Virus record (IMG/VR): IMGVR_UViG_2534682329_000010
Length of the DNA: 37,934 nucleotides
DNA from: a virus
Lineage: Duplodnaviria; Heunggongvirae; Uroviricota; Caudoviricetes
Strand: one strand, 5' to 3'
Part shown: positions 33,001 through 36,000 of the stretch, piece by piece
Layout: each line of letters opens with the position of its first letter
Numbering within the stretch: position 1 is the first letter of the stretch
Program-made: the position numbers

Positions 33001-36000
33001 CACCACTGGCGACCAGTTCTCTGGCGAGAGTGCTTATGTAATACCTTGATACACCGGTTTTAGCCTCCAGTGCCCGTAACGTCTCGCGACCGCTCAGACG
33101 TACAAGTTCAACAACCTGCCCTTTAATTTTTTCTCGCTCTTCTTGTGTAAAAATTTTTGCCATAAGCGCCTCCGGCAATCACTTTTCCGACACAATACGA
33201 CTGGAGGAATCAACAATCTGTCGAACAATATCCCGGTACTTGTTCAGCTCCCGCAGCGCGGCACAGACACGCTCCCACTTCTGGACATGATTCTTCGCCC
33301 GCCGCAGTTCGCGGTTTGCCATATGCAGCGATGGCAAAATCAAATCATCAGCTCGCGTTTCAGTAAACGATGGCAGCGACTGCACAATGTCCGCCACAGT
33401 TTCTGTTTTAATTTCTTCCAGTGTTACAGCTTCCTGTACTGGTAACGCAACGCCTGCTGGCTGAGGAAAGGCCTTACCATCAGTTTCCGCTACCGATGCT
33501 GCTTTCGGCTCTGCTGGTAAATTATCGCCCGGTATGCAGTAACGAAATTTACCGCCCTGATTTACGCGAATCAGACGACCTTTGCTGATTGCCATTGCCA
33601 GCGTTGAAGCCACTTTGCGGGATGTGGTACCGAACAGCGTAGCCAGTTCATCCGCCGTTTGTGGTCCACGTTGTTCAATCGTCGCAGTTAAATCGCTCTC
33701 TGAAATTTTCGCGACTGTTGCCGTGGTAGTTTCTTCCGGCAGTTCTGCCGGCGCTGGCTGCTCCTGCTGAACGTTGTTATCAGCCACACGCCAGGTGTTT
33801 ACGCTTTTATCAACGAAGCCAGACTTTTTCAGTTCCCACAGCTCGTTCAGCACTTCTTCACGGCTGATATCAAGTCGCGCAGCGAGTTCTACCGACGTGG
33901 CTTTTCCCATTGCTTTCAGTGCGTCAAAAACAGTCTCCATTAAAATTTCCTCCCGGTAAAATTACTTATCAACTCAAACAAAACCAGCCGCTTTCCGGCG
34001 TTCATATTCCTGTTTCAGCAACTCAATTGGCGTTGGCCCCGACGGGCGTTTGGGTGCCGCCAGTTGTCGCCGGACTGGCGGAACGCTCAGGCCGTTACCT
34101 ACATGCTTTGCCCATTTCGTCAGCTGCCGTTCTGCAAGCCGTTTTAATTCCCCTTCGGTCATCTGGCGCTCAATCCCCTTTGAACGCATCTCGAGGCAAA
34201 TGTGATACAGCACAGGCTGAGACCACGGGTACTTATCACTTCCGTCGTATCGCCAGGACTCATTGCGCCAGCGGCGGTACTCCTCCATCACAGCATCCAC
34301 CGTCAGACCGAATGGATTGGCTCCGCTTTCCGAAATCAGCGCCACAAACTCAGCCAGGTCCGGGGGCCATGTTTCACCCGCCCGGCAGCGGTCCATGCAC
34401 TGGCGGCAGACCTGCCGGATTTGCTGCTCAGTCATCGCACCAATCTGTGCAATCCAGAGCGTCGAAGGTGCGGCCCCGTTCTTCTGAGTCCAGCGGTTCG
34501 AATAAACCTCCCCCATGAGCTCCCACAGCTTCCACGCCGTTTCCGTCGCTGATAAATCCGTTTTCACGTTCCCACTGCTCACGTGCAGCCCGAATTTCCT
34601 GAACTGCCCGTGATGCGGTGCCACCTGGTGCTGCTGCATGGTTTACCCCCTTGCTGACTGGTTTAACCTGCGCCCTGACGTGATTTACGTGACGGGCGAA
34701 TTTCTGCTCCCACTGAATCTGCGTAAACACTTTCCTCTCCGCTGCCCAGTAGTCCCGGAAGGCGGCAAGTTCAGCAGGTGTAAATTCTGTCTCCGGCAAA
34801 GCCATCCCCCACAACGCAGCCCGTCGTCGAAAATCACGTGACGGATACCAGCTATCGGTCATCGGAAATTTCCCGATGGGTTCGCTCAGGCCTTCCAGGA
34901 ATACAGGGGGTGGTGCCTGTAACGACAAAACTTCCTGCTCACTGGTCGGAGCACTCTCGCGTGCGTTATGTGTGGGGTTTAGATCTTTGGATTCCTTTGG
35001 GTTCCGTGATCCGTTTTTGGGTGTCTTTGATGGAAAATTTGGGTGTCTTTGGTTATTTTCCATGCAGCTAAGAGTTCCGTTTTTGGGTCTGTTTTGTGCT
35101 GAAACATAACCATTTTCGGTACTGTTTTTATTAACAGCACCAATTTTACTCACCTTTAAAGACTCCCGTTTTTGGGTGTATTCAGGCTCGGCAACGCTTT
35201 CTTCTACACCGATAAGTCGGTACACCACGATTTGCTTTGTTCGGCCTTTTCTCTCACCGGTATCAACAATTAACCCAATCTCCATCAGGTGTCGTAAGCT
35301 GTCCTGCACAGTCTTTTTGTTCAGTTCCGTTACTTCTGCCAGTGCAGATACAGACGGGTATGCACACAAATCGGCACCGCACATATCAGCAAGCCAGGTC
35401 AATACTGACTTACTGGATGAACTGCCGGTTTTCACCTTTTTAGCCCATCGTAGTGCATCGATACTCATACGAACCCCTGGCAGACATTTGTTTATCTGCA
35501 AAGTAATATTGATATTGCTGACGATACGCATGCTTGAAAGCAATGGCTTTTTCTATAAGCTCGTCAGTCTCACGTTCCACAACAGATGGATCCGCAAAAA
35601 GCAGCCCGGACTCCACCACATCGCCATATTCTTTGTTTAACCCGGCGATCATGTACGTAATGCTTTTTCCATCAGTAATTTCACAATACAACCTGAAATC
35701 GCTGATCCGGATAGCCTCCATAATTGCCGGAATCAGCGCCGTGAATTTTTCCCGCTTATCCCTGGTATCAATAGCTTTCCATCGTTCGAATATCTTCACC
35801 CGGTTGACGCCCAGCGCCCGTTGATCAACCGCGCCATCATCAAACGTGACGCGTTGAACATCGATGTTCGGGCGTTCTTTCAGAGCCCAGAATGCTTCCG
35901 TGATTAATATCGTCGCCTGCTCCTGTGTCATTCCTGGTCGGCATACCCATGCATCCAGAGCCTCACGAGCCTGTTCAGGAGTGATTTTCATTGTTCAACC

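What the first reader, a model, noticed from the sequence alone, without database searches (positions are those of the whole stretch)
34980..35180. Iteron array inside the O-like gene marks the probable origin
At least four direct repeats of about 18 bp (CCGTTTTTGGGTGTCTTTG and variants) lie within the linker-coding part of the O-like gene and are followed by an AT-rich stretch, as for lambda ori within O. The repeats also generate the PKNG-type peptide repeats in the protein.
Basis: seen in the sequence. Interest (0 to 1): 0.45.

Follow-up and report, generated by a model that had tools for sequence, protein, structure and literature searches.

The report
Phage replication origin inside initiator gene
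The repeats are real binding-site-type DNA repeats (iterons) embedded in the coding sequence of a prophage replication-initiator gene, almost certainly marking the prophage's replication origin as in phage lambda, so this is an ordinary kind of feature in an initiator family whose origin I found no description of.

Summary
Observation confirmed. On the coding (minus) strand of a 346-aa initiator gene (34428-35468), the 12-mer ACCCAAAAACGG occurs three times exactly within 167 bp (0.22 expected in the whole window). There are also one AATTTT variant, one weak copy and one decayed copy.

The repeats are kept at DNA level, not peptide level. The core is read in three reading frames (TQKR / PKNG / HPNF). 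It is near-invariant in relatives from six other genera whose synonymous sites are saturated.

The array always sits just after the N-terminal winged-helix domain, in a segment predicted disordered. That domain plus array is found joined to three different C-terminal modules. In a DNA-only scan of viral contigs, 109 of 120 iteron pairs lay just downstream of a homologous winged-helix domain.

A second conserved element follows the last iteron (34974-35007). A lambda-P-like loader gene and a pR/cro-type operon complete a lambda-like layout.

The protein is not a lambda O family member; it has an HTH_36-type winged helix plus a DnaT-like domain. The AT-rich stretch (35100-35160) lies inside the array, not after it.

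Origin activity and binding are inferred, not shown. Verdict: new member of a known kind, modest interest.

The parts
34428..35468 (-). Replication initiator gene (346 aa, ATG at 35468, MSIDALRW...). It comprises an N-terminal winged helix, a disordered linker and a DnaT-like domain.
   Evidence: ORF. Pfam DnaT PF17948 at 5e-16 and HTH_36 weak. PHROG 1032 'replication initiation protein' at 8e-90. All homologues start MSIDA/MSLDA.
35208..35468 (-). Coding region of the N-terminal winged-helix domain (aa 1-87), the presumed iteron-binding domain.
   Evidence: AF2 gives four helices plus a beta hairpin, pLDDT 55-81. Foldseek hits are generic winged-helix proteins only. Pfam HTH_36 scores 23.7 bits here, and 30.5 and 46 bits in relatives.
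35157..35182 (-). Iteron 1, strong. Core CCCAAAAACGG at 35176->35166, read as T-Q-K-R.
   Evidence: It sits at the same gene offset (292) in all Enterobacterales relatives.
35140..35150 (-). Decayed iteron position (AGTAAAATTGG). It is homologous to a good iteron at offset 318 in relatives.
   Evidence: protein alignments.
35110..35120 (-). Weak iteron core (ACCGAAAATGG, read as T-E-N-G).
   Evidence: Relatives carry ACCGAAAACGG at this position.
35100..35160 (.). AT-rich, low-stability stretch inside the array. It is one candidate for the unwinding region.
   Evidence: GC 0.30-0.35. Least-stable 1.4% of 60-bp windows in the whole window.
35068..35093 (-). Iteron, strong. Core at 35087->35077, read as P-K-N-G.
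35033..35051 (-). Variant iteron CAAAGACACCCAAATTTTCC, read as H-P-N-F. The variant is conserved in relatives as PNF/PFF.
35002..35029 (-). Last iteron, strong. Core at 35021->35011, read as P-K-N-G.
34974..35007 (-). Conserved post-iteron element ACGGAACCCAAAGGAATCCAAAGATCTAAACCCC. It contains two GGAAyC-type ~10-11-mers followed by AAAGATCTAAA. It is the second candidate for the unwinding region and marks the module boundary.
   Evidence: Alignment A5: conserved from E. coli to Acinetobacter and read in different frames in different lineages. TRF finds a 10-bp tandem here. The Rac ydaU-like DNA begins here.
34659..34889 (-). Coding region of the DnaT-like ssDNA-binding domain (aa 194-270).
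   Evidence: PDB 6aep at 2e-18. Foldseek 6aeq/4ou6 at TM 0.9, rmsd about 1 A.
33974..34639 (-). Lambda-P-like helicase-loader gene. It overlaps the initiator's 3' end by 212 nt.
   Evidence: Pfam Phage_lambda_P at 3e-16. PHROG 109 'P-like helicase loader' at 1e-62. Conserved over its full length in Scandinavium.
36229..36258 (-). pR-like promoter match upstream of the cro-like gene. Transcription from it would run through the iterons.
   Evidence: consensus match only. The gene order is cro-like (P22_Cro), YdaT-like, initiator, P-like.

Best explanation
This is the replication origin of a lambdoid E. coli prophage, built on the lambda plan but with a different initiator family.

- Steps below are inferred unless marked otherwise.
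- The winged-helix N-terminal domain (aa 1-87) of the initiator binds the CCCAAAAACGG-type iterons that lie in its own coding sequence (35002-35182). It assembles an O-some-like nucleoprotein complex on phased sites. Iteron spacings are 26, 30, 33, 44 and 22 bp, with A5 tracts. Binding and complex formation are inferred by analogy with lambda O.
- The complex would destabilise neighbouring low-stability DNA. The unwound site could be the conserved post-iteron element (34974-35007) or the internal AT-rich stretch (35100-35160). Which one opens is not known.
- The C-terminal DnaT-like domain would then hold single-stranded DNA and/or dock the lambda-P-like loader encoded just downstream. The loader would deliver host DnaB.
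- Transcription from the pR-like promoter passes through the site, as in lambda.

Shown here:
- the repeats are real;
- they are selected as DNA;
- they are physically and evolutionarily coupled to the winged-helix domain;
- they lie in a disordered linker-coding segment.
For: 1. Non-random. There are three exact 12-mers within 167 bp against 0.22 expected in the window.

2. DNA-level selection.
- The same core is read in three frames within one gene.
- Relatives from Scandinavium, Enterobacter, Kluyvera, Plesiomonas, Edwardsiella and Serratia are 64-72% identical at nucleotide level in the N-terminal domain.
- In that domain, 0 of 51 third-codon positions of invariant residues are conserved, and mean pairwise identity at those positions is 0.47.
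- Yet core positions that fall on third-codon positions are 43-44 of 44 identical.

3. Position. Arrays of 4-6 copies lie at gene offsets 292-477, on the same strand. Elsewhere in those 5-kb loci there are only isolated two-mismatch matches, some on the other strand.

4. Module behaviour.
- The same N-terminal domain plus array is joined to DnaT-type, Phg_2220_C-type and a third C-terminal module.
- The DnaT module is also found behind other N-terminal domains.
- The joint lies right after the array.

5. Change of motif with the domain. Acinetobacter relatives (49-59% identical domain) carry CCCAACAACGG, also read in three frames.

6. Generality. The phages phiV10, Vibrio Her, AP22, Bcep176 and Mcat8 each have an array at the same place in the homologous gene.

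7. Specificity. A DNA-only scan for paired cores found at least 120 viral contigs. In 109 of them a homologous winged-helix domain lies within 650 nt upstream on the same strand.

8. Copy-number indels in whole-iteron units.

9. Structure. Winged helix, then a disordered region at aa 88-186, then the DnaT fold.

10. Context. A P-like loader lies downstream, with a cro-like gene and a pR-like promoter upstream. Lambda's architecture for comparison comes and PMC7466680.
Against: - There is no experimental evidence here for binding or for origin firing.
- The window's array is degenerate compared with relatives: three strong cores, against five or six in Edwardsiella phage EPP-1. This prophage's origin may therefore be weakened.
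- In this window there is no strongly AT-rich tract directly after the last iteron (GC 0.46 over 50 bp).
- No convincing DnaA or IHF sites were found.
- 72% of iteron spacings in the wider family are multiples of three. A peptide-repeat origin would also produce this, although the need to stay in frame explains it as well.
- The promoter is only a consensus match.
Confidence: 0.75

Rival explanations
1. The iterons are real binding sites for the initiator, but they act mainly in control rather than as the start site. They could act in autoregulation, as a transcriptional roadblock, by titration, or by handcuffing between co-resident prophages. Replication would start elsewhere.
For: - Iterons of plasmid replicons have such control roles (established knowledge).
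- The sites lie inside the transcribed gene, so a bound protein would meet RNA polymerase.
- Up to four copies of this module occur in one E. coli genome.
Against: - No other repeat array or candidate origin was seen in the replication region of any relative.
- The conserved post-iteron element and the low-stability DNA adjoin the array.
- In lambda the same layout is the origin.
Confidence: 0.1
2. The array is a relic. The family's origin has this design, but this prophage's copy is decayed and no longer fires.
For: - Two ancestral iteron positions (offsets 318 and 348) are degenerate here, and one unit is missing relative to Scandinavium and Enterobacter.
- Some E. coli copies carry further core mutations (PKNG to PKNR or PKNE) or truncated genes.
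Against: - The same 346-aa gene and the same array architecture are kept at 95-100% identity in 908 of 5426 complete E. coli genomes, and in the 80 best of 299 matching viral contigs.
- The gene is intact.
- For lambda, two iterons plus the adjacent AT-rich region suffice for unwinding, as cited in PMC7466680.
Confidence: 0.1
3. The repeats are a by-product of a repetitive, low-complexity peptide linker (PKNG-type repeats made by in-frame duplication). They have no role as DNA.
For: - Two copies encode PKNG.
- 72% of spacings in the wider family are divisible by three, and half of the arrays use a single codon phase.
- The linker is predicted disordered.
Against: - The same 11-12 nt are read in three frames in this gene and in 47 of 94 arrays.
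- Synonymous positions inside the cores are invariant, while those of the neighbouring domain are saturated.
- The peptide changes (TQKR, PKNG, HPNF, VPTT, SQQR) while the DNA stays the same.
- The post-iteron element is likewise conserved across frames.
Confidence: 0.04

Closest known systems
Phage lambda ori within gene O (and the six-iteron origins of Stx phages 933W and P27)
   Same: - The iterons lie in the middle of the initiator gene, just after the DNA-binding N-terminal domain, in a linker-coding segment.
- There are 4-6 copies.
- The core has the form CCC-(A)n-C-GG(G), resembling lambda's TCCCTCAAAACGAGGGA. One copy carries an AATT variant, as lambda iteron 3 does.
- A P-type loader gene lies directly downstream.
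- The gene lies in the pR/cro operon.

   Different: - The initiator is not a Phage_rep_O member and has no BLASTP similarity to O.
- The C-terminal domain is DnaT-like.
- The iterons are shorter in their dyad and more widely and irregularly spaced (22-44 bp against 20-24 bp).
- The strongest AT-rich stretch lies inside the array, not after it.
- A conserved GGAATC-type element replaces lambda's AT-rich tract.
- The initiator and loader genes overlap by 212 nt, against 4 nt in lambda.
Replication module of Escherichia phage phiV10 (epsilon15-like): p43 'replication initiation protein' (DnaT family) plus p44 (lambda-P family)
   Same: - The same three-part initiator: HTH_36-type N-terminal domain (51% identical over aa 33-96), a linker with iterons, and a DnaT-like domain.
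- The same core CCCAAAAACGGG, in six copies.
- A P-like gene downstream.

   Different: - phiV10's array is tight and regular (18-24 bp spacing). It is followed by three perfect 12-mers, AACCAGTCATAT.
- I found no paper describing its origin.
Rac prophage YdaU (annotated 'primosomal protein I') with YdaV
   Same: - The C-terminal half of the gene (34428 to about 34988) is about 90% identical in DNA to Rac-SA53 ydaU.
- Upstream, YdaS/YdaT-type genes and a DicA/RacR-type repressor are shared in kind.

   Different: - Rac YdaU has a different N-terminal domain (DUF1376).
- No multi-copy repeat family was found in its gene.
- In the Rac-SA53 record the next gene is ydaV, annotated 'putative replication protein', rather than a gene recognised here as P-like.
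E. coli DnaT (primosomal protein I, replication restart)
   Same: The C-terminal three-helix ssDNA-binding domain matches closely: about 50-57% identity, TM 0.9.
   Different: - The match covers only DnaT's C-terminal ssDNA-binding domain (chain residues 82-157).
- The rest of the protein is unrelated: an origin-binding winged helix plus a linker.
- It is a phage initiator, not a restart factor.
Iteron plasmids (RepA, pi, RepE type)
   Same: Direct repeats are bound by a winged-helix initiator next to an unwinding element. Only the iteron principle is shared; this comparison is from established knowledge.
   Different: - In those replicons the iterons lie outside the rep gene, and the initiator has two winged-helix domains.
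- The only Pfam sign here is a sub-threshold RP-C hit (19.7 bits against 24.4).

Membership tests
Lambda-type origin (ori inside the initiator gene) | Four or more direct repeats of about 18-20 bp in the middle of the initiator gene | tested here: met
   Four clear copies plus weak ones at 35002-35182. They correspond to aa 96-153 of 346.
Lambda-type origin (ori inside the initiator gene) | Initiator N-terminal domain belongs to Pfam Phage_rep_O (PF04492) | tested here: not met
   14.7 bits against a cut-off of 28.7, while lambda O scores 123 bits in the same run. BLASTP against lambda O gives nothing. Only weak hits to 'O-like' PHROGs, at 1e-5 to 1e-10.
Lambda-type origin (ori inside the initiator gene) | AT-rich tract directly following the last iteron in the direction of the gene | tested here: inconclusive
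   In the window the next 50 bp have GC 0.46; only an 18-bp piece is 33% GC. Acinetobacter relatives have 0.22-0.36 and Plesiomonas/Serratia 0.36-0.38 at that position; lambda has 0.25. The window's strongest AT-rich stretch is inside the array.
Lambda-type origin (ori inside the initiator gene) | Internal dyad symmetry of each iteron | tested here: inconclusive
   CCC...GGG is seen in iteron 1 only. The others end in CGGA. Relatives have a clean GTCCCAAAAACGGGAC.
Lambda-type origin (ori inside the initiator gene) | P-type helicase-loader gene immediately downstream | tested here: met
   PF06992 at 3e-16; PHROG 109 at 1e-62.
Lambda-type origin (ori inside the initiator gene) | Initiator binds the iterons, and the fragment supports replication | not testable with these tools
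   Needs EMSA or footprinting and an origin-cloning assay.
HTH_36-type phage replication initiators (PHROG 1032 and relatives) | N-terminal winged-helix domain of this family | tested here: met
   PHROG 1032 at 7e-38 for aa 1-96. Pfam HTH_36 scores 23.7 bits here, just under the cut-off of 25, and 30.5 and 46 bits in EPP-1 and Acinetobacter homologues. The AF2 topology is a winged helix.
HTH_36-type phage replication initiators (PHROG 1032 and relatives) | Own iteron array directly 3' of the domain-coding region (a feature derived here, not a published definition) | tested here: met
   Seen in all 19 genome relatives examined for it and in 5 named phages. 109 of 120 DNA-only hits have the domain upstream.
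DnaT (primosomal protein I) | C-terminal ssDNA-binding three-helix domain | tested here: met
   PF17948 at 58.5 bits against a cut-off of 25. PDB 6aep at 2e-18. TM 0.9.
DnaT (primosomal protein I) | Full-length DnaT architecture and a replication-restart role | tested here: not met
   Only chain residues 82-157 of the 179-residue DnaT match. The N-terminal two thirds of this protein are a winged helix plus a linker.

The most novel reading that the evidence does not exclude
This is a widespread origin design that I did not find described in the literature searches. Its parts are:
- an HTH_36-type winged-helix initiator whose CCCAAAAACGG-type iterons are embedded in its own disordered-linker coding sequence;
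- a conserved GGAATC-type short-repeat element that serves as the unwinding site;
- the two together forming a portable 'specificity cassette' that recombines with different helicase-recruiting C-terminal modules (DnaT-like, Phg_2220_C and others).

The core is nearly the same in phages of E. coli, Edwardsiella, Vibrio and Acinetobacter. Up to four copies sit in one E. coli genome. One prophage's initiator could therefore fire or titrate the origins of its neighbours.
Probability: 0.4. Interest if true: 0.45.

Novelty: new member of a known kind. Interest (0 to 1): 0.3.

Why it matters
- This module is in 17% of complete E. coli genomes, including O157:H7 and O145:H28 strains that carry Stx phages. 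RefSeq labels it only 'DnaT-like ssDNA-binding domain-containing protein', with no origin marked.
- Knowing the origin and its cognate domain gives a handle on which prophages can replicate after induction.
- It also bears on cross-talk or incompatibility between co-resident prophages that share the same iterons.
- It explains a mosaic joint in these genomes: the specificity cassette ends right after the last iteron.
- It is a clean example of a cis-acting DNA site kept intact under three different reading frames.
- The principle itself is textbook lambda biology.

Tried and rejected
- **AlphaFold2, single sequence.** A run on the N-terminal domain alone gave a useless model (pLDDT 46). It was replaced by a run with a 32-sequence alignment.
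- **Protein search with the domain alone.** This returned almost only truncated or frameshifted fragments. A second search with the full protein was needed.
- **PDB profile search of the N-terminal domain.** No solved relative was found. Foldseek gave only generic winged-helix hits, so no specific kinship to RepA, pi or DnaD could be claimed.
- **DnaA-box and IHF-site scans.** Only one-mismatch matches at background frequency.
- **Rfam, tRNA and single-strand folding.**
  - Rfam found nothing in the region.
  - No tRNA genes were found in the window.
  - The fold z-score was -1.84.
  - An RNA or hairpin explanation was dropped.
- **Rac ydaU.** It showed no multi-copy repeat family, so the iterons belong to the N-terminal cassette, not to the DnaT module.
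- **A 14-mer search with 3 mismatches.** Uninformative: 5 found against 4.07 expected. Only the matches with 0-1 mismatch carry weight.
- **34985-35005 as a fifth iteron.** Rejected. It is part of the separate post-iteron element.
- **Literature.** Six searches found nothing on the origin of this family; a search on Rac ydaU returned three papers that I did not read. The Eru paper on non-lambdoid Stx phages contains no mention of iterons, DnaT or origins. This means 'not found in the held library', not proof that no description exists.
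Full report
**What is there**

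The finding lies inside a minus-strand gene, 34428-35468 (346 aa, start MSIDALRW). On the coding strand the repeats read:
- AATACACCCAAAAACGGGAG (core 35176->35166);
- AACAGACCCAAAAACGGAAC (35087->35077);
- CAAAGACACCCAAATTTTCC (35043->35033);
- CAAAGACACCCAAAAACGGA (35021->35011).

The 12-mer shared by three of them is exact, lies on one strand, and is absent from the rest of the 37.9-kb window. Allowing one mismatch, 0.22 matches are expected, and 0 of 100 shuffles reach three. The fourth copy shares an exact 14-mer with the last one, 22 bp away. A weak copy (ACCGAAAATGG, 35120->35110) and a decayed one (35150->35140) lie between the first and second strong copies.

**The gene and its setting**

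The window is an E. coli lambdoid prophage. The gene is 97.8% identical to the 'phage replication protein' of the PPompW prophages of Stx2a-phage-carrying strains.

The protein has three parts:
- A weak HTH_36-type N-terminal domain (Pfam).
- A DnaT domain (PF17948, 5e-16). It matches solved DnaT ssDNA-binding domains (6aep, 2e-18; Foldseek TM 0.9).
- A linker between them.

PHROGs calls the whole protein a 'replication initiation protein' (phrog_1032, 8e-90). AlphaFold2 with a 32-sequence alignment gives three regions:
- aa 1-87: four helices and a beta hairpin (a winged helix), pLDDT 55-81.
- aa 88-186: no structure, pLDDT about 30.
- aa 195-266: the DnaT fold, pLDDT 82-88.

All iteron-coded residues (aa 96-153) fall in the unstructured part.

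The gene order is as follows:
- Downstream, overlapping by 212 nt, lies a lambda-P-like loader gene (PF06992, 3e-16; PHROG 109).
- Upstream lie a YdaT-like gene and a P22-Cro-like gene with a pR-like promoter match.
- A divergent cI-type repressor gene lies beyond.

This is the lambda early-right operon layout.

**The repeats are kept as DNA, not as peptide**

Within this one gene the core is read as T-Q-K-R, P-K-N-G (twice) and H-P-N-F. All three frames are used, because the spacings (26, 30, 33, 44, 22 bp) are not all multiples of three.

Relatives were fetched from one genome per species: Scandinavium, Enterobacter, Kluyvera, Plesiomonas, Edwardsiella and Serratia. They have 69-77% protein identity and 64-72% nucleotide identity in the N-terminal domain.

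- In that domain the synonymous sites are saturated. At 51 codons with an invariant residue, mean pairwise identity at the third position is 0.47, and none is invariant.
- By contrast, a matrix of 44 iterons from nine loci shows near-invariant core positions, including those that fall on third-codon positions (43-44 of 44).
- The same matrix shows flanking conservation, giving a unit of about 26 bp: AAsrnn-CCCAAAAACGG-kAnnsTTAA.

In each relative the array of 4-6 copies starts at gene offset 292. It is on the coding strand. The rest of each 5-kb locus holds only isolated two-mismatch matches, some on the other strand.

**The array travels with the winged-helix domain**

The same N-terminal domain plus array is followed by different C-terminal modules:
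- a DnaT-type module in E. coli, Scandinavium, Enterobacter and Kluyvera;
- a Phg_2220_C-type module in Edwardsiella phage EPP-1, Plesiomonas and Serratia;
- a third type in Acinetobacter.

Conversely, the DnaT-type module of this gene is about 90% identical in DNA to Rac ydaU. Rac ydaU has a different (DUF1376) N-terminal domain and no repeat array. The joint lies at about 34988, right after the array.

Acinetobacter relatives have a 49-59% identical domain. They carry a slightly different core, CCCAACAACGG, again read in three frames.

More distant homologous initiators each have an array at the same place:
- phiV10 has six copies of GAATGATCCCAAAAACGGGATGTT.
- Vibrio phage Her has five copies of a 24-bp unit with CCCGAAAACGG.
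- AP22 has three copies.
- Bcep176 has about eight copies of GGAACAGTCCCAAA.
- Mcat8 has a different motif.

Alignment of full-length homologues shows insertions and deletions in whole-iteron units.

As a reverse test, I scanned IMG/VR by DNA alone for two cores 7-37 bp apart.
- In 109 of them a homologue of the N-terminal domain lies within 650 nt upstream on the same strand.
- Among 94 distinct arrays, all lie in an open frame, and half use two or three codon phases.

**A second conserved element, and the AT-rich question**

Directly after the last iteron, all Enterobacterales and Acinetobacter relatives share CGGAATCTaCCAAaGGAAtCtAAAGATCTAAA. In the window it reads ACGGAACCCAAAGGAATCCAAAGATCTAAACCCC, at 35007->34974. 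It too is read in different frames in different lineages: R-N-L...K-D-L-N-P against P-E-S-I...K-R-S-T-P.

- In Acinetobacter it consists of three GAATCTnnCAA units plus an A-run, with GC 0.22-0.36.
- phiV10, Vibrio Her, Bcep176 and Mcat8 have two to four short tandem 9-12-mers at the same place.
- This is the position of lambda's AT-rich tract.

In the window this element is only mildly AT-rich. The following 50 bp have GC 0.46, and the 60-bp window covering the element is in the least-stable 10%.

It is in the least-stable 1.4% of the whole window. It lies between iteron 1 and the rest, and it corresponds to the decayed iteron positions. Which of the two opens cannot be decided here.

**How it most likely works**

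By analogy with lambda (PMC7466680), the steps would be:
1. The winged-helix domain binds the iterons and builds a bent nucleoprotein complex.
2. Adjacent low-stability DNA opens.
3. The DnaT-like domain binds the single strand and/or the P-like loader, which brings host DnaB.
4. Transcription from the pR-like promoter runs through the site.

Shown here are the reality of the repeats, their selection as DNA, their coupling to the domain and their placement in a disordered linker. Binding, unwinding and firing are inferred.

**Rivals**

- **Peptide-repeat by-product.** Contradicted by the frame and synonymous-site data.
- **Control-only role with the origin elsewhere.** Cannot be excluded, but no other candidate site was seen.
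- **Decayed, non-firing copy.** Possible, since the array has three strong cores against five or six in EPP-1. However, the same architecture is kept in 908 of 5426 complete E. coli genomes.

**Comparison with the known**

It works like lambda ori/O/P. It is not a member of the O family: Phage_rep_O scores 14.7 bits against a cut-off of 28.7, and BLASTP finds nothing.

The closest named relative with the same full architecture is the phiV10 (epsilon15-like) p43/p44 module. I found no paper that describes the origin of this family; a search on Rac ydaU returned three papers that I did not read, and the Eru paper has no mention of iterons, DnaT or origins.

**Verdict**

It is a new member of a known kind, of modest interest.

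Noticed in passing
window 34428-34639: The lambda-P-like ORF (33974-34639) overlaps the 3' end of the initiator gene by 212 nt in another frame. Both reading frames are conserved. The P-like protein is 71% identical over its full length in Scandinavium, including the overlap, and the initiator's tail is conserved in alignment A4. PHROG 15931 is a 482-position profile that spans both proteins, as if some phages have them fused or frameshifted. In lambda, O and P overlap by only 4 nt.
   Followed up: partly
window 30506-30681, 27490-27574, 27602-27678 (all minus strand): Rfam matches above the gathering score: sok antitoxin RNA (120.7 bits), C4 antisense RNA (76.3 bits) and isrK Hfq-binding RNA (74.3 bits).
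   Followed up: no
proteins P0004-P0012, P0024 and P0027 (alignment A3): Database proteins that match only the N-terminal domain are mostly truncated or frameshifted ORFs. They go out of frame inside the iteron region, which is full of A5 runs. This could reflect sequencing or assembly errors, or real pseudogenes, at the homopolymers.
   Followed up: partly
L108 1810-1845 (phiV10); L107 about 1968-2010 (Vibrio phage Her); L105 1942-1977 (Bcep176); L109 about 2015-2060 (Mcat8): Right after their iterons these phages carry two to four short tandem units. The units are AACCAGTCATAT x3, GAACCAGTCAT x2-3, GAACAGTAG x4 and AAACCTATTAAT x3 respectively. They resemble the 13-mer unwinding repeats of oriC in their position.
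   Followed up: partly
window 34982-34985 and 35008-35011; alignment A5: The AGATCT site (containing GATC) in the post-iteron element is conserved in all Enterobacterales relatives, although it is read in different frames. It is absent from the Acinetobacter versions. There is a second GATC at the edge of the last iteron.
   Followed up: partly
window 35050-35062 and 35100-35112: A 13-nt inverted repeat (85% complementary) brackets the iteron at 35068-35093 (pair I5). It may be chance.
   Followed up: no
E. coli genomes; loci L018, L005, L004 and L060: The module occurs at 993 places in 908 genomes, up to four per genome, with three on plasmids. Some copies carry core mutations (PKNG to PKNR or PKNE) or truncated genes (193-205 aa).
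   Followed up: no
L109 1801-2052 (Moraxella phage Mcat8): The homologous initiator gene carries an 84-bp higher-order repeat (two exact copies and a partial third) made of a different motif, AAAGGGGGTACAATTTTGCA.
   Followed up: no
window 33179-33940 (minus strand): The gene after the P-like loader encodes a DUF1627 protein (6e-97) with weak HTH-type hits at its N-terminus. Its function is unknown.
   Followed up: no
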